Shown here: positions 315 to 5,437 of the stretch, one piece after another
How the letters are laid out: each line of letters starts with the position of its first letter
How positions within the stretch are numbered: the first letter of the stretch is position 1
IMG/VR virus record: IMGVR_UViG_3300039367_000062
Span: 1 to 5,437 of that record
Reading direction: 5' to 3' (one strand)
DNA from: a virus
Lineage: Duplodnaviria; Heunggongvirae; Uroviricota; Caudoviricetes
DNA length: 5,437 bases
Notes under the pieces: model-generated
What the model was told of the DNA's origin: nothing
What the model saw: only the letters and a program-made list of their open reading frames with translations
Databases searched by the model: none
Made by a program: the position numbers and the translations under genes

Positions 315-355
315 TTCGTTCTCCACTTTATATGCGCTGCACCGCTCTGAATTTT

Positions 356-400
356 GATTGCAGCAATCCAGCCCATTTGACATGGGATGATTGCTGCAAT
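356..400. repeat. Extended intergenic palindrome (nested hairpin) followed by a T6 tract
   Basis: GATTGCAGCAATC (356..368) pairs with GATTGCTGCAAT (389..400); inner CCCAT (372..376) pairs with ATGGG (382..386); loop TTGAC. TTTTTT at 401..406 follows on the plus strand and overlaps the rdgC-like stop codon. Confidence 0.4.
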
Positions 401-404
401 TTTT

Positions 405-1322
405 TTAAGTTGTTGGATTTTGGCTTTTATCTTCTTTGTAAGAAAGAAGGTCACACATCAAATTAACTACCTTGCTGAATTGGAAAAGGTCAGCGCCAGT
501 CTGATGACGCCACTGGAATGCTTTATCATCTTCATCATTAAATGTCTGAGATTGAGTATTGATGCGCGAAAAATGGAAATTTTCGGTAAGAATGAAGGTC
601 ACACCGCAACCGGATAACTCCATTTTATCAGCAGTGAAACTACTACTAAGGCTATCGGCCAGTTCGCTTTGAATTGACTCATGCTCAGCTGAGTAGCGAA
701 TAATTTCCTTTTGATCTGCGTAGCGCGATAGCTGAATATAATTTCCGACAGTGAATCCTTCAAATGCATTGGCTGCACCATTGATGTAGTTATTCAGGCG
801 TGTAGTCAGTCCATTCTTGATATCACTGATGTTGATTGTTTCTGTTTTCACTGAACCGACAACCTTAATCAGCATTGCGCATACCATACCGGCTATTATT
901 TTATTGGTTGTGTTGATTACCAATAATTTCTCATCAGTGCTGTACAATGCAAGAATCAGAGTAGACTTAACAAATGCCTGTTTGCATAGATCTACTCGTA
1001 CGTTATCAATAATGGCCAGTCGTTCGGCACGCTTTAATTTATTCCCGGACATATTTTCGGTTGTTTGGATTCGAGAATTAGCTTCTTTCATGACGACATG
1101 TCGGGGAATTATTTTCTGATCATGACGGATTACCATTGCGTACCCACCAGATATCGGAGTTACCAGTTCACCAGTGACAGGATTCTCTACAAAAGAGGAC
1201 CGTGAAAATTCTGTTTCCCCGATTTCAGAATAAGGGAGTTCGAGAAGATGACCTTCAATAGCCTGTATACTAGGTAATGTTGCTCGGTACACAATTGCGT
1301 TACGAAATTTTGGTAATTTCAT
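405..1322 (-). CDS. RdgC-family recombination-associated protein (phage type), about 305 aa
   Basis: Internal ATG at 1322..1320 of the 405..1694 ORF, preceded by GAGGA with 8-nt spacing. N-terminus MKLPKFRNAIVYRA matches the RdgC N-terminal pattern (F-x-N-x-x-VYR), and overall length is RdgC-like. The 124-codon in-frame extension upstream is the translation of the GC-rich noncoding island, not protein. Confidence 0.8.
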   Translation of the reverse strand: MKLPKFRNAIVYRATLPSIQAIEGHLLELPYSEIGETEFSRSSFVENPVTGELVTPISGGYAMVIRHDQKIIPRHVVMKEANSRIQTTENMSGNKLKRAERLAIIDNVRVDLCKQAFVKSTLILALYSTDEKLLVINTTNKIIAGMVCAMLIKVVGSVKTETINISDIKNGLTTRLNNYINGAANAFEGFTVGNYIQLSRYADQKEIIRYSAEHESIQSELADSLSSSFTADKMELSGCGVTFILTENFHFSRINTQSQTFNDEDDKAFQWRHQTGADLFQFSKVVNLMCDLLSYKEDKSQNPTT

Positions 1323-1357
1323 TCTATTTTCCTCTGCACAATGTATTAGTTTCTCCA

Positions 1358-1700
1358 CAAAACAGAGAAGAACACCTGCGGTGGCAGCCGCCCGGATGGA
1401 TTGGGTTATGAGCCCGTCGTCCGGTGATGCTCTTCTCTGTTTTGCAAAAAAGGACGGTACCAGCCGGAAGCAAGGGTACAAACTGGTACCGCCAGGACTA
1501 CACACAGCATAAAGTTGTGGTGCCGGGTGCCTCCCGGTGCCTGGCGAAGGTTGCACACCAGGCGGGTGGGTATCCACAGAAGGTCGACTGTCAGCCTCAA
1601 CCTTAACCCGCGTGCGCTGAGCCGCATTCACCACAACGCTAAGGATTCTCTCTGGTTGAAAATACTTAGCTGTTATGTGCCTGCTTTTAGCCACATCAGG
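1358..1700. other. GC-rich, ORF-poor structured island (candidate ncRNA or cis-acting RNA element)
   Basis: About 62% GC in sampled 60-nt blocks, visibly higher than the flanking genes. All six frames are open but give non-protein-like, P/G/R-rich translations. Perfect 13-bp inverted repeat CAAAACAGAGAAG (1358..1370) / CTTCTCTGTTTTG (1432..1444); 9-bp inverted repeat CGGTACCAG (1455..1463) / CTGGTACCG (1483..1491); GGTGCC three times in 1519..1541 with a CCGGG/CCCGG hairpin. Confidence 0.3.
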
Positions 1701-1739
1701 CGAGGTGGACCTGGTTATTCCCCAACAACAAGGATTCGG

Positions 1740-1762
1740 TTAATCTGGATATCCCCAACAAC
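1740..1762. repeat. Left arm of an imperfect inverted repeat flanking the 1779..2294 gene; also overlaps a 13-bp direct repeat
   Basis: TTAATCTGGATATCCCCAACAAC is the reverse complement, with a 2-bp indel, of the 2303..2326 arm; core ATCTGGATATCC is identical. TCCCCAACAACAA occurs twice in direct orientation (1719..1731 and 1752..1764). Confidence 0.5.
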
Positions 1763-1778
1763 AATAAGAGTATTCAAT

Positions 1779-2294
1779 GTGATCGCTGAATTAACGGCAG
1801 CAATGACGGCTATTCGTGAAACAGCCCAGATTGCAAAACTAATGAACGAGGCAAAAACTCAAGCTGAAGTAAATGCGGCTATTGGTGAGCTGAACTCAAA
1901 GCTTGCGTCTATTCAGCGCGAATGCGTGTCTCTCGTTGAACTGGTGGGCTCTTATCAAGAAATAAATGCTTCTCTCAAAGCTAAAATTGCAGAATTCGAA
2001 AACTTTGAGGCTCAGACGGAAGGCTATATCCTTAACCAACTTGAGTCGGGTACTTTTGTATACTCGAAGGAGGTAATCGTGAACGGTGGCAGCATAACCA
2101 TGCATCTTTGCCCAAAATGTTTTGGACAAAAGATAGTATCGATACTTCAACCATTCCCGGTTAGCAAAGATGAGCTTTTTCATAAAAGCAGGTGCCTCCA
2201 CTGTGAAAATAAGTTTCTGATGAATAAAAATCCGGATTACGTATCGCCTCCATCCATTGAGGAGTTGTCCAGAAAACTTAACGGCAATCTGTAG
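1779..2294 (+). CDS. Hypothetical coiled-coil plus C-terminal zinc-ribbon protein (about 171 aa); moron-like gene antisense to the early-left operon
   Basis: ORF 1515..2294; the upstream 88 codons are GC-rich and non-protein-like. Likely start is GTG 1779 (AAGAG 8 nt upstream) or ATG 1803 (no Shine-Dalgarno). N-terminal half is heptad-like (AKLMNEAKTQAEVNAAIGELNSKLASIQ...); C-terminal half has CPKC...(about 29 aa)...CLHC, a CxxC...CxxC ribbon. Codon usage is coding-like and AT-rich. Own terminator immediately downstream. Confidence 0.6.
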   Translation: MIAELTAAMTAIRETAQIAKLMNEAKTQAEVNAAIGELNSKLASIQRECVSLVELVGSYQEINASLKAKIAEFENFEAQTEGYILNQLESGTFVYSKEVIVNGGSITMHLCPKCFGQKIVSILQPFPVSKDELFHKSRCLHCENKFLMNKNPDYVSPPSIEELSRKLNGNL

Positions 2295-2302
2295 ATTGCT
2301 AC

Positions 2303-2326
2303 TGTTGTGGATATCCAGATTGTTAA
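2303..2326. repeat. Right arm of the imperfect inverted repeat flanking the 1779..2294 gene
   Basis: TGTTGTGGATATCCAGATTGTTAA; its reverse complement TTAACAATCTGGATATCCACAACA matches the left arm at 1740..1762. The GGATATCC core is itself palindromic. Confidence 0.5.
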
Positions 2327-2331
2327 AGAGC
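2319..2331 (-). promoter_or_regulatory. boxA-like antitermination motif on the leftward transcript (nutL-like)
   Basis: The minus strand reads GCTCTTTAACAAT, matching the rrn-type boxA consensus TGCTCTTTAACAA. It lies about 100 nt downstream of the pL-like promoter and directly after the 2333..2356 hairpin as read on the minus strand. Confidence 0.35.
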
Positions 2332-2332
2332 T

Positions 2333-2356
2333 AAGCGTCCTGTAGGGCGCTTTTTT
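2333..2356 (+). terminator. Rho-independent terminator for the 1779..2294 gene
   Basis: AAGCGTCC (2333..2340), loop TGTA, GGGCGCTT (2345..2352) gives an 8-bp stem with one G-U pair, followed by a T6 run at 2351..2356, 39 nt after the stop codon. Confidence 0.6.
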
Positions 2357-2436
2357 GTTGCTAATGAATCATCCTAGACTTCATATGCTCCAGGCGGCTA
2401 CTTCGTGGGCGTCCTGCCTGTTTGTTGTTTCTCTTG

Positions 2437-2450
2437 GGTACATTATGTAT
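2437..2450. promoter_or_regulatory. Operator-like site (OL candidate) overlapping the pL -10
   Basis: GGTACATTATGTAT matches 12 of 14 positions with GGTACATATTGTAT at 3262..3275 on the other side of the repressor gene, and contains the TACA/TGTA dyad. Confidence 0.35.
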
Positions 2451-2469
2451 CCCAAAGGCACATTGTCAA
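2442..2469 (-). promoter_or_regulatory. pL-like sigma-70 promoter driving leftward early transcription
   Basis: On the minus strand: -35 TTGACA (plus 2464..2469), 16-bp spacer, -10 CATAAT (plus 2442..2447). It sits immediately beyond the repressor-gene terminator and is overlapped by the operator-like site. Confidence 0.45.
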
Positions 2470-2471
2470 GT

Positions 2472-2496
2472 ATAAAAAAACCTGCCGAAGCAGGTT
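2472..2496 (-). terminator. Rho-independent terminator of the repressor gene
   Basis: Minus-strand RNA AACCUGC-UUCG-GCAGGUU (7-bp stem, UUCG tetraloop) followed by UUUUUUAUA, 13 nt after the repressor stop. Confidence 0.65.
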
Positions 2497-2508
2497 CATA
2501 AACATTGA

Positions 2509-3183
2509 TTAGGCTTTGATTTTGTATCTTCTTGGTTTTCCTGAGAAAATCACAGTTCCAATTATAGAGCAATTACCGTTGATCTTAATGTAAGGCTCAG
2601 GCCAGTTTGGGTTTAACGCTTTGAGATAACGCTGTGTCCCATCTTCTATCAACCTTTTGAAGGTGGTTTCACCTGTATCGTGCATCAATGCAATAACGTC
2701 GTCACCGTGGCAGGCAGGTACTTCAGGATCGACAAAAATCATGTCTCCCGGGCGGTACTCATCAATCATTGAATCACCTATCACCCGCAAGATATAAGTC
2801 ATTTCCCCACAGGGTACAGGGCAGGGATACGTTTCTGCTGTGCTCAAATCAACCTCAGAATATCCAACTTCTTTCCATGCTCCGGCCTGTACCCATGATA
2901 TGACAGGGACTAATGTGATTTGTTTATTAGTGATTGAAACATCAGGTTTTTTTGTGATGTTCGTTGTCTGGTGTTCTTGATCGAGCCATCCGACAGGCAG
3001 GTCGAAACATTTTTCGATGTGTCGTGCCATGCTGTCACCGATATTTTTAGTAGCACCATCTCCCATAAACCTGCTGGTCTGGGTTGGCTCGCGATCAATC
3101 ATAGTGGCAAAGGAAGAATTCCCGCCAACACCATCTCTCAGTTTTCTGGCGTTAGACCGCCGGATGTCATGGATTGTTTTCAT
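2509..3183 (-). CDS. CI-type prophage repressor: N-terminal HTH, C-terminal S24 (LexA-like) autopeptidase domain
   Basis: 224-aa ORF. C-terminal domain carries the Ser/Lys dyad signature (VIGDSM ... TTFKRL) typical of LexA, lambda CI and UmuD. N-terminal region is HTH-like (QTSRFMG...ARHIEKCFDLPVGWLD). It is divergent from the Cro-like gene, with operators between. Confidence 0.9.
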   Translation of the reverse strand: MKTIHDIRRSNARKLRDGVGGNSSFATMIDREPTQTSRFMGDGATKNIGDSMARHIEKCFDLPVGWLDQEHQTTNITKKPDVSITNKQITLVPVISWVQAGAWKEVGYSEVDLSTAETYPCPVPCGEMTYILRVIGDSMIDEYRPGDMIFVDPEVPACHGDDVIALMHDTGETTFKRLIEDGTQRYLKALNPNWPEPYIKINGNCSIIGTVIFSGKPRRYKIKA

Positions 3184-3189
3184 AACGAA

Positions 3190-3218
3190 ATTAAAACCCT
3201 TGTACCGTTAAGGTACAA
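3190..3218 (-). promoter_or_regulatory. pRM-like promoter for the repressor gene (possibly leaderless mRNA)
   Basis: On the minus strand: -35 TTGTAC (plus 3213..3218, inside the palindromic operator), 17-bp spacer, -10 TTTAAT (plus 3190..3195) ending 6 nt before the repressor ATG. No Shine-Dalgarno precedes the ATG. Confidence 0.3.
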
Positions 3219-3219
3219 G
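3199..3219. promoter_or_regulatory. Perfect palindromic operator (OR candidate)
   Basis: CTTGTACC-GTTAA-GGTACAAG: 8-bp perfect arms around a 5-bp centre, in the repressor/cro intergenic region, just upstream of the pR-like -35 and overlapping the pRM-like -35. Confidence 0.5.
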
Positions 3220-3223
3220 TATC

Positions 3224-3251
3224 TTGAAGGTTCATTTCAATCATGTAATAT
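3224..3251 (+). promoter_or_regulatory. pR-like promoter for the cro-like operon
   Basis: -35 TTGAAG (3224..3229), 16-bp spacer, -10 TAATAT (3246..3251); predicted transcript start just upstream of the GGAGG Shine-Dalgarno. Confidence 0.4.
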
Positions 3252-3261
3252 GTATACCGGA

Positions 3262-3275
3262 GGTACATATTGTAT
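3262..3275. promoter_or_regulatory. Operator-like site overlapping the cro-like ribosome-binding site and start codon
   Basis: GGTACATATTGTAT, a near-duplicate of 2437..2450; it contains the cro-like ATG. Confidence 0.35.
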
Positions 3276-3474
3276 GAAAGCGTATTGGGACTCTTTAACC
3301 AAAGAACAGCAGGGCGAGTTGGCCGGAAAAGTTGGCTCAACACCTGGCTACTTACGGCTGGTTTTCAATGGCTATAAAAAAGCCAGTTTTGTGCTGGCTA
3401 AAAAACTTGAGCAATGCACGTCAGGTGCAATTACGAAATCTGACTTAAGACCGGATATCTATCCGAAAGATTAG
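3274..3474 (+). CDS. Cro-like small HTH regulator (66 aa)
   Basis: Internal ATG of the 2971..3474 ORF, whose upstream part is antisense to the repressor gene. GGAGG at 3259..3263, 10 nt upstream. Protein MKAYWDSLTKEQQGELAGKVGSTPGYLRLVFNGYKKASFVLAKKLEQCTSGAITKSDLRPDIYPKD has a small HTH-like pattern, and the position is the first rightward gene divergent from the repressor. Confidence 0.75.
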   Translation: MKAYWDSLTKEQQGELAGKVGSTPGYLRLVFNGYKKASFVLAKKLEQCTSGAITKSDLRPDIYPKD

Positions 3475-3505
3475 CAGAACACTTTCAATTTTTAACCACA
3501 GAACG

Positions 3506-4075
3506 ATGAGGCTAATCGTGGGTAAGCATCACTGGAAAATAGAAAAACAGCCTGAGTGGTACGTGAAAGCTGTCAGAAAAACTATCGCGGCGTTGCCGGG
3601 TGGTTACGCTGAAGCGGCTGACTGGCTCGATGTAACAGAAAACGCTTTATTCAACCGCCTTCGTGCAGATGGCGATCAGATTTTCCCGCTGGGATGGGCA
3701 ATGGTTTTACAGCGTGCTGGTGGCACTCATTTCATTGCTGATGCTGTGGCGCAGTCTGCAAATGGCGTCTTTGTGTCTCTTCCTGACGTCGAGGATGTGG
3801 ACAACGCCGATATTAACCAGCGTCTGCTGGAAGTCATTGAACAGATCGGCAGTTATTCAAAACAGATTCGTTCAGCAATCGAAGACGGTGTAGTGGAACC
3901 GCATGAGAAGACAGCAATTAACGACGAGCTGTATCTCTCAATTTCGAAGCTGCAGGAGCATGCAGCACTTGTCTACAAAATTTTTTGCATTTCAGAAAGT
4001 AATGACGCCCGCGAGTGTGCAGCTCCGGGCGTCGTGGCGTCGATTGCTTCTGGTTGTGGAGAAACTAACGCATGA
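3506..4075 (+). CDS. CII-like / YdaT-like early regulatory protein (putative), 189 aa
   Basis: Second gene of the rightward operon, occupying the cII position. Alternative GTG start at 3518 has a GAGG 6 nt upstream. The functional assignment is positional and from weak family resemblance only. Confidence 0.65.
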
Positions 4076-4410
4076 ACAGTTTAACAACACACTACCGTCG
4101 CTCGCAACTGATTGCGCTTCCTGTACCGGGTGGAAAAGCGAAGGTGGAATATTGCTATGCAGTGAATGTACCAGGTGACAGGGAAATTGTAACCCACAGC
4201 TTTGCAGAGTGGGCTGTGGGGGATTTCAACCGGCAGAAGGAGACAGTCCTTTGCGACAAGTTAACCGCTGGTTCAAAGATCACTACGGAGTGCCCGTCAG
4301 AGTCATTCGTTGGGAACCGGAAACACAACGGGTTATCTACCTCCGCGAAGGCTATGAGCATGAGTGCTTCAGTCCGCTCGAACAGTTTCGTCGTAAATTC
4401 AGGGAAATAG
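4072..4410 (+). CDS. Hypothetical small protein; only the 5' part (4072 to about 4250) looks coding in this frame
   Basis: Its ATG overlaps the preceding stop (ATGA at 4072..4075), suggesting translational coupling. Codon usage is coding-like up to about 4250; after that the frame gives a Ser-rich low-complexity tail with rarer codons. Confidence 0.3.
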
Positions 4411-4430
4411 AGGTCGGTCATGAGCACTAA
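4251..4430 (+). CDS. Hypothetical small protein (about 59 aa) upstream of and overlapping the replication gene start
   Basis: TTG at 4251 with AAGGAGA 7 nt upstream (GTG 4209 is an alternative start). The translation ...[56 protein letters not shown] is protein-like with preferred codons. It overlaps the next gene by 11 nt. Confidence 0.45.
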
Positions 4431-5361
4431 ATTAACCGGCTATGTATGGGATGGTTGCGCAGCGTCAGGCATGAAATTATCCAGCGTGGCAATTATGGCC
4501 CGCCTGGCTGATTTCAGTAATGACGAAGGTGTGTGCTGGCCATCGATTGAAACCATTGCCCGCCAGATTGGCGCGGGGATGAGTACAGTCAGAACGGCTA
4601 TCGCACGGCTGGAAGCAGAAGGCTGGTTAACGCGTAAGGCGCGTCGCCAGGGTAACCGCAATGCGTCGAATGTTTATCAGCTTAACGTTGCGAAGCTTCA
4701 GGCTGCGGCATTTTCTCAACTGTCAGATTCTGACCCGTCAAAATCTGACGCATCAAAATCTGACCCGTCAAAATTTGATGCGTCGAAATCTGGCAAAAAA
4801 GCGGGTTTTCACCCGTCAGAATCTGGCGGGGATCCGTCAGTAAAATCAAAACATGATCCGTCAGATAAAAAACCTTCTCGTCCGGACGCTTCGCAACCGG
4901 ACACGCAGACGGCTGAACAGGATTTTTTAACTCGCCATCCTGATGCGGTTGTATTCAGCCCTAAAAAGCGCCAGTGGGGGACGCAGGATGATTTGACCTG
5001 CGCACAGTGGCTCTGGAAAAAAATCATCGCCCTGTACGAGCAGGCTGCCGAATGTGACGGCGAGGTGGTTCGTCCCAAAGAACCGAACTGGACAGCCTGG
5101 GCAAACGAAATTCGCCTGATGTGTGTGCAGGATGGTCGTACTCACAAACAAATCTGCGAGATGTACAGCCGCGTCAGCCGCGATCCGTTCTGGTGCCGTA
5201 ACGTGCTCAGCCCGTCGAAGCTGCGGGAAAAATGGGATGAGCTTTCCCTGCGCTTATCGCCGTCCGTAAGCACGTACACCGAAAAACGCGAAGACCCGTA
5301 CTTCAAAGCCAGTTACGACAACGTGGACTACAGCCAGATCCCGGCAGGATTCAGGGGGTAA
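4420..5361 (+). CDS. Replication initiator (lambda O-like): N-terminal HTH DNA-binding domain, repeat linker containing the origin iterons, C-terminal domain
   Basis: 313-aa ORF with GAGG 6 nt upstream. The N-terminal [13 protein letters not shown]...MSTVRTAIARLEAEGWLTRKARRQGNRNASNVYQLNV is an HTH of the type found in phage replication initiators. An internal 15-bp tandem repeat array encodes SK[SF]D[PA] repeats. It sits in the O position after the cro/cII-like genes. Confidence 0.85.
   Translation: MSTKLTGYVWDGCAASGMKLSSVAIMARLADFSNDEGVCWPSIETIARQIGAGMSTVRTAIARLEAEGWLTRKARRQGNRNASNVYQLNVAKLQAAAFSQLSDSDPSKSDASKSDPSKFDASKSGKKAGFHPSESGGDPSVKSKHDPSDKKPSRPDASQPDTQTAEQDFLTRHPDAVVFSPKKRQWGTQDDLTCAQWLWKKIIALYEQAAECDGEVVRPKEPNWTAWANEIRLMCVQDGRTHKQICEMYSRVSRDPFWCRNVLSPSKLREKWDELSLRLSPSVSTYTEKREDPYFKASYDNVDYSQIPAGFRG
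4722..4796. repeat. Iteron array (candidate phage replication origin) inside the initiator gene
   Basis: Five tandem 15-bp units: GTCAGATTCTGACCC, GTCAAAATCTGACGC, ATCAAAATCTGACCC, GTCAAAATTTGATGC, GTCGAAATCTGGCAA. Each has a GTCA...TGAC internal dyad. Degenerate copies (CCGTCAGAATCTGG, CCGTCAGTAAAATC, CCGTCAGATAAAAAA) continue to about 4875, followed by A/T-rich stretches. Confidence 0.7.
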
Positions 5362-5363
5362 TC

Positions 5364-5437
5364 ATGAGTCTTTTGAATGAAGTTCAGAAATTCATTGAAG
5401 CCCATCCGGGGTGTACTTCCGGAGACATTGCGGATGC
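5364..5437 (+). CDS. Start of the next gene (hypothetical; position suggests the second replication-module gene), truncated by the window end
   Basis: ATG at 5364 with AGGGGG 5 nt upstream, 2 nt after the initiator stop; translation MSLLNEVQKFIEAHPGCTSGDIAD... runs off the window. Confidence 0.5.
   Translation, partial: MSLLNEVQKFIEAHPGCTSGDIAD

What the first reader, a model, noticed from the sequence alone, without database searches (positions are those of the whole stretch)
2319..2469. pL-like promoter followed by an rrn-type boxA (GCTCTTTAACAAT) preceded by a hairpin that doubles as the moron terminator
On the minus strand there is a near-consensus promoter (TTGACA, 16-bp spacer, CATAAT). 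About 100 nt downstream lies a hairpin and then a 13-nt match to the rRNA-operon boxA consensus. The order is hairpin then boxA, which is the rrn-type order rather than the lambda nut order of boxA then boxB. The same hairpin on the plus strand is the intrinsic terminator of the rightward gene, so one short sequence would serve convergent transcription in both directions.
Basis: partly seen in the sequence, partly recalled or inferred. Interest (0 to 1): 0.5.

Follow-up and report, generated by a model that had tools for sequence, protein, structure and literature searches.

The report
rRNA-style boxA bracket in prophage
Downstream of the repressor-controlled early-left promoter of an N-less lambdoid prophage lies an exact copy of the ribosomal-RNA antitermination signal boxA, joined to a long-range RNA helix that brackets a backward-facing accessory gene much as the same two elements bracket 23S rRNA, which suggests the phage borrows the host rRNA transcription machinery to read through inserted cargo.

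Summary
On the minus strand there is TTGACA-16-CATAAT (2469-2442), a hairpin (2352-2333) and an exact GCTCTTTAACAAT (2331-2319). The promoter lies just after the cI terminator and is overlapped by two operator palindromes of the type found between cI and cro, so it is pL.

The boxA is not chance. It is kept in relatives whose cargo protein is only 48-67% identical. It matches the functional consensus GYTCTTTAANA, and 18 of 19 bases match the E. coli 16S-23S spacer boxA.

A 66-nt leader RNA with strong covariation lies between pL and the hairpin. The bases just after boxA (AAUCUGGAUAUCC...) pair with ...GGAUAUCCAGAUU 542 nt downstream, bracketing the antisense moron. This helix covaries across at least 14 cargo types. 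In rrn operons the strand next to the spacer boxA likewise pairs with the 23S trailer.

The hairpin is mainly the plus-strand terminator.

The best reading is an N-independent, rrn-type Nus-factor module. It would give Rho-resistant transcription, and probably looping or RNase III processing, across about 1.1 kb of untranslated RNA. Nothing has been tested experimentally.

I rate it a new variant of a known kind, interest 0.7.

The parts
2478..2497 (-). Intrinsic terminator ending the cI (S24/LexA-like repressor, 2509-3183) transcript. It lies immediately upstream of pL.
   Evidence: 8-bp stem followed by TTTTTATACTT. (Peptidase_S24, E 1.5e-26).
2442..2469 (-). Early-left promoter pL: -35 TTGACA (2469-2464), 16-nt spacer, -10 CATAAT (2447-2442). 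The inferred start is near 2435.
   Evidence: 11 of 12, best in the window. The sequence upstream of about 2430 is replaced in phages of other immunity types, while the sequence downstream is conserved.
2426..2462 (.). Two OL operator-like palindromes, TGTRY-N7-RYACA, at 2446-2462 (in the promoter spacer) and 2426-2442 (over the -10 and the start).
   Evidence: all four matches in the window lie at OL or at OR (3201-3217, 3251-3267). repeat D3.
2361..2426 (-). Conserved structured leader RNA. An outer stem P1 (2425-2421 with 2368-2364, degenerate in this window) encloses an invariant 24-nt core, CAGGCAGGACGCCCACGAAGUAGCC, and hairpin P2 (2394-2389 with 2378-2373).
   Evidence: 36 distinct sequences, 89% of cells paired, 97 cells changed on both sides, 0 of 500 shuffles as good. 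Covariance model R1 scores 81.5 bits here and finds one copy per phage. There is no Rfam match.
2333..2352 (+). Hairpin AAGCGTCC-TGTA-GGGCGCTT followed by T6. It is the intrinsic terminator of the rightward cargo gene. In the leftward RNA it occupies the boxB-like position 1 nt upstream of boxA.
   Evidence: -11.7 kcal/mol on the plus strand, -7.5 kcal/mol on the minus strand. The hairpin is kept with every cargo type.
2313..2331 (-). rrn-type boxA GCTCTTTAACAAT (2331-2319). The wider stretch GCTCTTTAACAATCTGGAT matches the E. coli 16S-23S spacer boxA region at 18 of 19 positions.
   Evidence: Consensus GYTCTTTAANA from PMC5725501. Conservation.
2298..2321 (-). 5' strand of the long-range helix (AAUCUGGAUAUCCACAACA...). 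It overlaps the last 3 nt of boxA.
   Evidence: repeat I2 (19 nt, 95% complementary).. The arms joined by a short loop fold at -28.3 kcal/mol, z -7.2.
1779..2294 (+). Cargo ('moron') gene of 171 aa with a coiled coil and two CxxC pairs. It is antisense to the pL transcript and belongs to no known family.
   Evidence: RefSeq CDS in relatives; substitutions at codon positions 1, 2 and 3 number 7, 3 and 19; no Pfam or PADLOC family.
1742..1767 (-). 3' strand of the long-range helix (...UUGUUGGGGAUAUCCAGAUU).
   Evidence: repeat I2.. It co-occurs with boxA: 18 of 20 distinct boxA loci have CCAGATTA and the other 2 have alternative arms, against 0 of 48 loci without boxA.
1691..1737 (-). Constant framework 3' of the cargo slot: a second arm-like repeat (UUGUUGUUGGGGAAUAACCAGG) and the hairpin CCACCUCGCCUGAUGUGG.
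   Evidence: repeat D8; the framework is conserved after every cargo type. The hairpin is also present in SfV.
1444..1667 (-). STnc100-like RNA ending in a strong intrinsic terminator (stem 1453-1493, U-run 1446-1451). It lies on the pL transcript path before rdgC.
   Evidence: RF02076, 40.3 bits (gathering score 47), E 2.3e-6.: -20.5 kcal/mol, z -2.3.
405..1322 (-). rdgC-like gene, the first clear leftward coding gene. It starts 1,114 nt downstream of the inferred pL start.
   Evidence: PF04381 RdgC, E 2.6e-30. (length of the untranslated stretch).

Best explanation
The region is the early-left control region of an N-less lambdoid prophage of the SfV/e14/CPS-53 type.

When the cI-like repressor leaves its operators, RNA polymerase starts at pL (about 2435, leftward). 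It first transcribes a 66-nt structured leader. It then passes a hairpin that terminates only the convergent rightward transcript. Next it transcribes an rrn spacer-type boxA.

By analogy with rrn operons and CRISPR arrays, boxA RNA binds NusB/NusE. Together with NusA, NusG and SuhB this converts the polymerase into a Rho-resistant complex that stays tethered to boxA.

The bases directly after boxA form the 5' strand of a helix of about 19-23 bp. Its 3' strand is transcribed 542 nt later, on the far side of the backward-facing cargo gene. The tethered 5' strand can then pair with the 3' strand. This loops out the untranslated antisense-cargo RNA and probably exposes it to RNase III. Transcription continues towards the STnc100-like RNA and rdgC.

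This is the arrangement that brackets 23S rRNA (hairpin, spacer boxA, leader-trailer helix), with a protein-coding cargo in antisense orientation in place of the rRNA.

Shown here: the sequences, their conservation, the covariation of the helix and of the leader, the co-occurrence of boxA with the helix and with antisense cargo, and the parallel with rrn. Inferred: Nus-factor binding, resistance to Rho, looping and RNase III cleavage.
For: Evidence that the promoter is pL:
- It is the best sigma-70 match in the window, 11 of 12.
- Operators overlap it, and the only other copies are at OR.
- At least seven different promoter/operator modules are joined to the same leader at the transcription start.

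Evidence that the boxA is real:
- The match is exact, with 0 of 200 shuffles giving one.
- It is identical to the rrnB leader boxA.
- 18 of 19 bases match the K-12 spacer boxA region.
- At least 75 of 120 genome hits to GYTCTTTAANAATCTGG lie just upstream of 23S rRNA.
- It is retained in cargo homologues down to 48% amino-acid identity while the flanking sequence diverges.
- The variants seen, GTTCTTTAACA and GCTCTTTAAAA, fall on the two degenerate positions of the functional consensus GYTCTTTAANA (PMC5725501 through).
- In 1.23 Mb of related phage DNA, 27 of 31 consensus matches lie at this one site. Only 4 lie elsewhere, against 5.2 expected.
- In an O157 Rac-like prophage the same cassette follows a translated gene. 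There its boxA is preceded by GCCGGA-N12-TCCGGC, and 32 of 42 aligned columns match rrnB boxB-boxA.

Evidence for the helix:
- The arms are 19 nt and 95% complementary.
- The helix is kept across at least 14 cargo types, with spacings of 508-816 nt. Lineages differ in paired changes, for example AAUCUGGAUGACU with AGUCAUCCAGAUU, and GUAACCCUC with GAGGGUUAC.
- 88.9% of cells are paired, 8 of 18 pairs change on both sides, and 0 of 500 shuffles do as well.
- Wobble pairs favour the leftward RNA: 32 against 2 within the moron set, and 16 against 7 across cargo types.

Evidence for the association:
- boxA and the 3' arm occur together: 18 of 20 distinct boxA loci have CCAGATTA and the other 2 have alternative arms, against 0 of 48 loci without boxA.
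- boxA loci carry mostly antisense cargo: 16 of 17 against 10 of 75 (Fisher p = 2.5e-10).
- SfV, whose cargo is sense-oriented, lacks the hairpin, the boxA and both arms.

Evidence for the rrn parallel:
- In K-12 rrnB, AAUCUGGAUCAAGCUGAAAAU, right after the spacer boxA, is complementary to the 23S trailer AUUUUCAGCCUGAUACAGAUU.
- In 12 rrn operons of beta- and gamma-proteobacteria, the strand next to boxA pairs 3.0-3.3 kb downstream, with lineage-specific covariation.

Support from the literature:
- boxA is necessary and sufficient for formation of the rrn antitermination complex, and boxB is dispensable (PMC10250234).
- boxA protects untranslated CRISPR arrays from Rho, and looping mediated by boxA has been proposed for rRNA (PMC7665894).
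Against: - There are no experimental data for this element: no mapped start site, no Nus-factor binding and no test with a Rho inhibitor.
- The leftward untranslated RNA is only mildly C-rich relative to G. The highest 80-nt C/G ratio is 1.75, so Rho loading is plausible but not demonstrated.
- About nine near-identical loci carry GCTCTTTAGCAAT, which departs from the functional consensus at position 9.
- The hairpin is weaker in the leftward RNA than in the rightward RNA.
- Across cargo types the wobble bias towards the leftward strand is modest, 16 against 7, p about 0.09.
- Many of the compared sequences are close relatives, so the counts overstate the number of independent events.
- Relatives such as SfV manage with the leader alone. 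If the leader is itself an antiterminator, boxA may add little to antitermination.
- A strong intrinsic terminator (1446-1493) lies between the module and rdgC. From my own knowledge, not checked here, rrn-type complexes mainly resist Rho rather than intrinsic terminators.
Confidence: 0.6

Rival explanations
1. The module is mainly an RNA folding and processing device, not an anti-Rho device. boxA tethers the 5' arm so that the helix forms and RNase III excises the antisense-cargo RNA. That RNA could then silence the cargo mRNA during lytic growth. Antitermination would be supplied by the upstream leader RNA.
For: boxA overlaps the helix strand directly. The same layout brackets 23S rRNA, where the helix is an RNase III substrate (PMC10250234). 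The leader RNA is present in all relatives, with or without boxA. The rut-like composition is only mild.
Against: The helix is short (about 19-23 bp, with a mismatch or bulge), and cleavage has not been tested. In the O157 Rac-like context the module has no leader nearby and lies exactly where translation stops, which fits an anti-polarity role. The two functions are not exclusive in rrn operons.
Confidence: 0.12
2. The conserved 17-19-mer and the inverted repeats are DNA-level features. They would be the constant borders of a cassette-exchange hotspot, such as recombination anchors or terminal repeats of a small mobile cassette. The resemblance to rrn would reflect ancestry or chance, with no role in transcription.
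For: The outer 7-8 bp of both arms and the flanking framework are constant, while the inner parts change together with the cargo. This is what recombination within the flanks would produce. The same cassette occurs in an unrelated Rac-like prophage. Repeats at the two ends of a mobile element also change together.
Against: There is no transposase and no consistent target duplication. Wobble pairs are biased towards one strand. The boxA variants follow the NusB/E functional consensus. The type-2 version keeps boxA but replaces the hairpin with an rrn boxB-like one. The rrn helix that uses the same sequence is an RNA helix.
Confidence: 0.12
3. The boxA works as it does in suhB. Binding of NusB/E near a ribosome-binding site represses translation of a small leftward ORF, which promotes Rho termination and so dampens leftward expression.
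For: Regulation of this kind is established for suhB and for a ParE-like toxin (PMC5725501). In the SfIV/Kati cargo type, a leftward ORF with a strong GAGGAGG ribosome-binding site starts 47 nt after boxA.
Against: The window's own cassette, and most others, have no leftward start codon with a ribosome-binding site within about 50 nt of boxA. boxA co-occurs with the helix and with antisense cargo, not with a particular ORF.
Confidence: 0.07
4. The functional strand is the rightward one. Cargo mRNAs end at the terminator with a single-stranded anti-boxA sequence, AUUGUUAAAGAGC. This could pair with boxA RNA of rrn operons or of superinfecting lambdoid phages, acting as a decoy or an exclusion RNA.
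For: The complement of boxA lies immediately 5' of a good terminator with a U6 tail, a layout typical of small RNAs derived from 3' UTRs. The hairpin is optimised for the plus strand.
Against: The type-2 version keeps boxA but has no plus-strand terminator. The helix wobble bias favours the leftward RNA. The allowed variants match the NusB/E consensus as read on the leftward strand.
Confidence: 0.05
5. The region is a lambda-type nutL site. boxA would be followed by a boxB hairpin (GCAAUCUACAGAUUGC, 2299-2284) that is bound by an unrecognised N-like protein.
For: A 6-bp hairpin lies 19 nt after boxA.
Against: That hairpin overlaps the stop codon of the moron gene and is absent from the other cargo types that keep boxA. 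No ORF in the window has an N-like family match. There is no second boxA on the pR side.
Confidence: 0.02

Closest known systems
rrn operon 16S-23S spacer antiterminator plus the 23S leader-trailer helix (boxB-like hairpin, spacer boxA, helix strands flanking 23S rRNA; complex of NusA/B/E/G, SuhB and S4)
   Same: The order is hairpin, then boxA, then a helix strand directly after boxA. The sequence GCTCTTTAA(C/A)AATCTGGAT matches at 18 of 19 positions. The outermost helix base pairs are the same, AAUCUG with CAGAUU. The 3' strand lies on the far side of a long insert that is not translated in this direction.
   Different: The insert is a 0.5-0.8 kb protein-coding cargo in antisense orientation, not a 2.9 kb rRNA. 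The helix is only about 19-23 bp. The unit is driven by a repressor-controlled phage promoter. The upstream hairpin doubles as the terminator of a convergent gene. There is no boxC (UGUGUGGG). Binding of Nus factors and cleavage by RNase III are untested.
[quoted passage not shown]
   Same: A lone rrn-type boxA, with no phage N protein, is placed ahead of a long untranslated transcript, where it would protect against Rho.
   Different: CRISPR leaders have no long-range helix abutting boxA. In the phage the protected RNA is antisense to a gene.
Phage lambda nutL/nutR with N protein
   Same: The element lies in the early-left transcript of a lambdoid phage, downstream of pL. It uses a boxA of the kind recognised by NusB/NusE.
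   Different: The order is hairpin then boxA, not boxA then boxB. The boxA is the full rrn consensus rather than CGCUCUUA. No N gene and no conserved boxB are present. There is no counterpart on the pR side.
HK022 put RNAs (cis-acting antiterminator RNAs of an N-less lambdoid phage)
   Same: The 66-nt leader lies immediately downstream of pL in phages that lack N, as putL does. It is a conserved structured RNA.
   Different: The topology differs: one closing stem around a conserved core and a hairpin, against two adjacent stem-loops in put. The covariance model does not match HK022 putL. There is no second copy in the pR operon. Its function is unknown.
suhB 5'-UTR boxA (PMC5725501)
   Same: The boxA consensus is the same, and it is a non-rRNA target.
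   Different: In suhB the boxA represses translation and promotes Rho termination. Here there is no conserved adjacent ribosome-binding site.

Membership tests
rrn-type boxA (NusB/NusE binding site) | Sequence matches the functional gamma-proteobacterial consensus GYTCTTTAANA. | tested here: met
   GCTCTTTAACA at 2331-2321 is an exact match, and the 13-mer is identical to the rrnB leader boxA. Consensus from PMC5725501. Two of the three variant types found in relatives fall on the degenerate positions.
rrn-type boxA (NusB/NusE binding site) | It lies on a transcribed strand downstream of a promoter. | tested here: inconclusive
   It lies about 105 nt downstream of a near-consensus promoter that is overlapped by operators. 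No transcript data were available.
rrn-type boxA (NusB/NusE binding site) | It binds NusB/NusE and recruits SuhB, NusA and NusG. Its effect depends on the nus genes and is reversed by inhibiting Rho. | not testable with these tools
   This needs ChIP, gel-shift and genetic experiments.
rrn 23S-type bracket (spacer boxA plus leader-trailer helix) | The strand directly 3' of boxA pairs with a strand beyond the insert, and the pairing is supported by covariation. | tested here: met
   Phage: (88.9% paired, 8 of 18 pairs changed on both sides, 0 of 500 shuffles as good). rrn reference.
rrn 23S-type bracket (spacer boxA plus leader-trailer helix) | A hairpin (boxB) lies just 5' of boxA. | tested here: met
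   The hairpin 2352-2333 ends 1 nt before boxA. It is weaker in the leftward RNA (-7.5 against -11.7 kcal/mol). The type-2 relatives carry a hairpin shaped like rrnB boxB.
rrn 23S-type bracket (spacer boxA plus leader-trailer helix) | The insert is a ribosomal RNA, and the helix is cleaved by RNase III. | tested here: not met
   The insert is the antisense of a 171-aa protein gene. The element is therefore not an rrn operon but a copy or mimic of its flanks. RNase III cleavage cannot be tested here.
Lambda-type nut site | boxA is followed by a conserved boxB hairpin, and a phage N protein is present. | tested here: not met
   The order is reversed. The downstream hairpin 2299-2284 is specific to this cargo. 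No N-like family is found in the window ORFs. There is no boxA on the pR side.
HK022 put RNA | Two adjacent stem-loops of about 70 nt with conserved put residues, usually in two copies (putL and putR). | tested here: not met
   The leader covariance model gives no hit on HK022 putL and finds one copy per phage. The topology differs. The published alignment of put homologues could not be read.
STnc100 sRNA (RF02076) | The score reaches the Rfam gathering threshold. | tested here: not met
   40.3 bits against a threshold of 47, E 2.3e-6, with the full model length matched. It is best described as an STnc100/PasD-like relative (bioRxiv 10.64898/2026.05.13.724894).

The most novel reading that the evidence does not exclude
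N-less lambdoid prophages carry a portable cargo slot built from, or converged on, the flanks of 23S rRNA: a spacer-type boxA fused to the outer leader-trailer helix. The slot would recruit the host rRNA transcription and processing machinery (Nus factors, SuhB, RNase III) so that accessory genes can be inserted backwards into the early-left operon without causing Rho-dependent polarity. The antisense RNA would be looped out and excised. The upstream 66-nt leader would be a new class of cis-acting, N-independent antiterminator RNA, analogous to but distinct from HK022 put.
Probability: 0.3. Interest if true: 0.85.

Novelty: new variant of a known kind. Interest (0 to 1): 0.7.

Why it matters
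Regulation by boxA and the Nus factors was long thought to be confined to rRNA and to N-dependent phages. The suhB gene and CRISPR arrays were added only recently.

A phage module that copies the 23S bracket would be a further natural target. It would also be the first non-ribosomal one in which boxA is joined to a long-range helix. That gives a small and genetically tractable system for testing the proposed role of the rrn complex in RNA looping and folding.

The module would also explain how accessory genes can be inserted antisense into an essential early operon without polarity. It would mark a widespread exchange slot for cargo genes in E. coli, Shigella, Salmonella and Klebsiella prophages; some part of the queried 821-bp region (window 1700-2520) matched in 2,088 of 5,426 complete E. 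coli genomes.

Finally, it suggests a compact part for synthetic biology: transcription across an insert without loss of downstream expression.

Tried and rejected
- Lambda-type nut. The hairpin after boxA (2299-2284) overlaps the stop codon of the moron gene and is absent from the other cargo types. No N-like ORF was found.
- Homology of the leader to HK022 put. I fetched HK022 pL-putL and found only short shared strings. The covariance model built from 36 leaders does not match it. The paper on put homologues (PMC3187212) is not held.
- Rfam. Nothing matches the promoter, leader or boxA region. The only hits are the STnc100-like match and a spurious mir-5880 hit on repeats inside the O gene.
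- Bidirectional terminator. On the leftward strand the hairpin is followed by AGCUCUUUAAC, with no U-run, and the scan did not call it.
- A translated leftward ORF antisense to the moron (1896-2183). It has no family match. Its GGAGG is lost in a 94%-identical relative. However, long stop-free antisense frames persist in diverged homologues, and I did not resolve this.
- Mobile-element reading of the inverted repeats. There is no transposase and no consistent target duplication.
- Function of the moron. It has no Pfam family above the cut-off and no PADLOC match.
- Literature. Searches combining boxA with prophage, lambdoid, N-independent, Rac and Nus-factor terms found no description of an rrn-type boxA in N-less lambdoid phages. 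The library covers open-access papers only, so this does not prove that none exists.
- Rho loading sites. The composition shows only mild C-over-G bias, and no dedicated predictor was available.
Full report
**Context.** The window is the immunity and early region of a lambdoid prophage of the SfV/SfIV/e14/CPS-53 group. The closest complete phage is Escherichia phage PhiR49_1, 99.9% identical over 1346-5437. The genes are:

| Gene | Coordinates | Evidence |
|---|---|---|
| LexA-like S24 repressor (cI) | 2509-3183, minus | |
| cro-like HTH | about 3274-3474 | |
| CII/CP76-like | 3506-4075 | |
| O-type replication gene | 4420-5361 | |
| RdgC-family gene | 405-1322, minus | PF04381, E 2.6e-30, |

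No ORF in the window matches an N-type antiterminator family.

**Checking the observation.**
- The promoter is TTGACA (2469-2464), a 16-nt spacer and CATAAT (2447-2442) on the minus strand. It is 11 of 12 and the best match in the window.
- The hairpin is at 2352-2333.
- GCTCTTTAACAAT is at 2331-2319. It is the only match in the window, and none of 200 shuffles produced one.
- The 13-mer is identical to the boxA of the rrnB leader, which I read from E. coli K-12 rather than from memory.

**The promoter is pL.** Promoter-like matches as a class are not enriched in the window (5 found, 7.3 expected), so the context decides.
- The promoter starts 8 nt after the cI terminator (2497-2478).
- A 17-bp palindrome, TGTRY-N7-RYACA, occurs four times in the window. 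Two copies overlap this promoter (2446-2462 in the spacer, 2426-2442 over the -10 and the start). The other two lie between cI and cro (3201-3217, 3251-3267).
- In relatives of other immunity types, everything upstream of about 2430 is replaced by at least seven unrelated promoter/operator modules. The sequence downstream stays the same. A module boundary at the transcription start is typical of lambdoid immunity regions.

**A conserved structured leader RNA lies between pL and the hairpin.**
- Positions 2426-2361 (minus strand) are conserved after all those promoters.
- In 36 distinct sequences, an outer stem P1 and a hairpin P2 show extensive compensatory change. Examples for P1 are GCGAA/UUCGC, CCACC/GGUGG and UCAUC/GAUGA. 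Examples for P2 are CCUGG/CCAGG, CCGGU/ACCGG, CCGAC/GUCGG and CCCCA/UGGGG.
- Overall 89% of cells are paired and 97 cells are changed on both sides. The covariation score is 0.65 against 0.16 in shuffles, and 0 of 500 shuffles do as well.
- The stems enclose an invariant core, CAGGCAGGACGCCCACGAAGUAGCC. Part of that invariance is forced by the search pattern used.
- In this window P1 is degenerate, with two mismatches.
- A covariance model finds one copy per phage, always just after pL. It finds none in the pR operon and does not match HK022 putL. Rfam has no family for it.
- Its position in N-less phages invites comparison with put, but membership is not supported.

**The boxA is under selection and is tied to the cargo slot, not to pL.**
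- Moron homologues were collected by protein similarity, without regard to boxA. In 80 IMG/VR loci of 48-100% amino-acid identity, the 13-mer sits just past the stop codon in all but one group, which is truncated by an insertion. The surrounding bases diverge.
- The variants are GTTCTTTAACAAT and GCTCTTTAAAAAT. They fall on the two degenerate positions of the experimentally derived consensus GYTCTTTAANA (PMC5725501). A third variant, GCTCTTTAGCAAT, departs from the consensus and occurs in a few near-identical loci.
- In 120 loci (1.23 Mb) chosen only because they carry the leader, the consensus occurs 31 times. Of these, 27 lie at this one position and strand and 4 lie elsewhere, against 5.2 expected.
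- SfV itself has a sense-oriented orf33 after the leader and has no hairpin, no boxA and no arms.
- In an O157:H7 Rac-like prophage the same cassette sits after a translated DUF1391 gene, far from any leader. There the boxA is preceded by a different hairpin, GCCGGA-N12-TCCGGC. That hairpin has the shape of rrnB boxB (GCCGCU-N12-AGCGGC), and 32 of 42 aligned columns match the rrnB boxB-boxA stretch.

**A long-range helix starts inside boxA.**
- The 19 nt beginning with the last three bases of boxA (AAUCUGGAUAUCCACAACA, 2321-2303) are complementary to 1760-1742, which is 542 nt downstream in the leftward RNA. Together they bracket the antisense moron (repeat I2). Joined by a short loop, the arms fold at -28.3 kcal/mol, z -7.2.
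- At least 14 unrelated cargo types share the same frame: hairpin, boxA, AAUCUGG..., cargo...CCAGAUUA, constant 3' flank. The spacing ranges from 508 to 816 nt.
- The inner parts of the arms change together. Examples are AAUCUGGAUGACU with AGUCAUCCAGAUU, AAUCUGGAUACCCC with GGGGGUAUCCAGAUU, and a complete swap to GUAACCCUC with GAGGGUUAC.
- On 15 distinct arm pairs, 88.9% of cells are paired and 8 of 18 pairs change on both sides. None of 500 shuffles does as well, and sliding the register drops pairing to 46% or less.
- Non-Watson-Crick positions are mostly G.U in the leftward RNA and A.C in the rightward RNA. The counts are 32 against 2 within the moron set and 16 against 7 across cargo types (p about 0.09). 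This favours an RNA helix on the same strand as boxA, but it is not conclusive.
- boxA and the 3' arm occur together: 18 of 20 distinct boxA loci have CCAGATTA and the other 2 have alternative arms, against 0 of 48 loci without boxA.
- boxA loci carry mostly antisense cargo: 16 of 17 against 10 of 75, by a crude ORF criterion and with related sequences.

**The module copies the 23S rRNA bracket.**
At least 75 lie just upstream of 23S rRNA, and two are prophages of this type.
- In K-12 rrnB the 16S-23S spacer reads: hairpin, TT, GCTCTTTAAAAATCTGGATCAAGCTGAAAAT. The phage sequence GCTCTTTAACAATCTGGAT matches 18 of 19 bases. Yersinia, Rahnella and Pectobacterium spacers match 18 of 18.
- In rrnB the stretch right after the spacer boxA is complementary to AUUUUCAGCCUGAUACAGAUU, which lies 47-68 nt beyond the 3' end of 23S.
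- In 12 distinct rrn operons of beta- and gamma-proteobacteria, the strand next to boxA pairs with a partner 3.0-3.3 kb downstream, with lineage-specific covariation. Examples are AAUCUGGAAGAAGUAAAG with CUUUACUUCUUCCAGAUU, and AAUCUGGAAAGCUGA with UCAGCUUUCCGAGAUU.
- The conserved AAUCUGG/CCAGAUU therefore forms the outermost part of the 23S leader-trailer helix. The phage has the same three-part layout, with the rRNA replaced by a backward-facing protein gene.

**The hairpin.** On the plus strand it is an 8-bp stem containing a U.G pair, followed by U6 (-11.7 kcal/mol). In the leftward RNA the U.G pair becomes a C.A mismatch (-7.5 kcal/mol), and no U-run follows. It is part of the constant frame and is shared by all cargo types. 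It is therefore best read as the slot's terminator for rightward cargo transcripts, protecting pL and cI from antisense read-in. Whether it also acts as a boxB cannot be decided. rrn boxB is largely dispensable (PMC10250234).

**Most likely mechanism.**
1. On induction, polymerase leaves pL and makes the leader, whose function is unknown and which may be an antiterminator.
2. It passes the hairpin and transcribes boxA.
3. NusB/NusE bind boxA and, with NusA, NusG and SuhB, modify the polymerase. This is inferred from sequence identity and from the finding that boxA is necessary and sufficient for assembly of the rrn complex (PMC10250234).
4. The modified polymerase resists Rho across RNA that is not translated in this direction. 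The distance from the start to the rdgC start codon is 1,114 nt. This is the role shown for the boxA of CRISPR arrays (PMC7665894).
5. boxA stays tethered to the polymerase, so the adjacent 5' arm is held until the 3' arm emerges. The helix then loops out the antisense-cargo RNA and may be cut by RNase III. This is inferred from the rrn model of looping mediated by boxA, cited in PMC7665894, and from the 23S parallel.

My confidence that boxA is a functional Nus-factor site acting on the leftward transcript is about 0.6. My confidence in RNase III cleavage is lower, about 0.35.

**Weak points.**
- There are no transcript or binding data.
- The composition is only mildly rut-like.
- A variant with G at position 9 exists.
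- The sequences compared are related, so the counts are inflated.
- A strong intrinsic terminator at the end of the STnc100-like RNA (1446-1493) lies between the module and rdgC.

**Novelty.** Antitermination by boxA and the Nus factors, leader-trailer helices and lambdoid pL leaders are each well known. I found no description of an rrn spacer-type boxA fused to a covarying bracket helix around antisense cargo in N-less lambdoid prophages (open-access library only). I rate it a new variant of a known kind, interest 0.7.

Noticed in passing
window 2361-2426 (-): A 66-nt structured leader RNA lies immediately downstream of pL. It is conserved after at least seven different promoter/operator modules and shows strong covariation in two stems. 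It has no Rfam family, does not match HK022 putL, and occurs once per phage. It is a candidate cis-acting element of N-less lambdoid phages.
   Followed up: yes
window 1444-1667 (-): An STnc100/PasD-like RNA scores 40.3 bits, below the Rfam gathering score of 47. It ends in a strong intrinsic terminator (1446-1493). It lies on the pL transcript path and is overlapped by the ORF annotated as yfdP in relatives, which has no Pfam family. That ORF may be spurious.
   Followed up: partly
L003 4632-4670 (-) (E. coli O157:H7 Rac-like prophage): The same moron cassette with boxA and both arms sits after a DUF1391 gene in a Rac-like prophage. Its boxA is preceded by GCCGGA-N12-TCCGGC. This resembles rrnB boxB in stem length, loop length and flanking bases; 32 of 42 aligned columns match the rrnB boxB-boxA stretch.
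   Followed up: partly
L215-L334 (rrn operons of many Proteobacteria); L335/L336 (E. coli K-12 rrnB): The 17-mer made of boxA plus AATCTGG is conserved upstream of 23S rRNA in beta- and gamma-proteobacteria. The strand next to boxA pairs with the 23S trailer 3.0-3.3 kb downstream, with covariation. The 23S leader-trailer helix therefore appears to start directly at the spacer boxA.
   Followed up: partly
window 1719-1731 and 1752-1764 (+): TCCCCAACAACAA occurs as a direct repeat. In the leftward RNA this gives two tandem arm-like copies, UUGUUGUUGGGGAUAUCCAGAUU and UUGUUGUUGGGGAAUAACCAGGU. The second copy could be an alternative 3' partner for the 5' arm.
   Followed up: no
window 1896-2201 (-) and homologues: Stop-free frames of 104-132 codons antisense to the moron gene persist in homologues down to 48% identity. 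They have no family match and no conserved ribosome-binding site. This may be a by-product of coiled-coil codon usage or an overlapping gene.
   Followed up: partly
window 4721-4795 (+): A spurious mir-5880 hit falls on tandem direct and inverted copies of TCTGAC(C/G)C(G/A)TCAAAA inside the O replication gene. The gene encodes repeated SDPSK/SDASK peptides at this point. These are probably origin iterons.
   Followed up: no
window 2284-2299 (-): The perfect 6-bp hairpin GCAAUC-UACA-GAUUGC overlaps the stop codon of the moron gene, 19 nt after boxA. It is specific to this cargo type.
   Followed up: partly
window 354-1345 compared with L001 and L002: The rdgC-like gene replaces the YfdQ (DUF2303) gene found at the same position in PhiR49_1, SfV and K-12 CPS-53. 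This is another mosaic exchange, directly downstream of the STnc100-like RNA.
   Followed up: no
L104, L126, L205 (IMG/VR): A few loci that have the leader but no boxA keep degenerate 3'-arm-like sequences (GGGGAUUUCAGAUUA, GGGGAAUUAAAAAGAUUA) before the constant flank. They may be decayed or alternative versions of the slot.
   Followed up: partly
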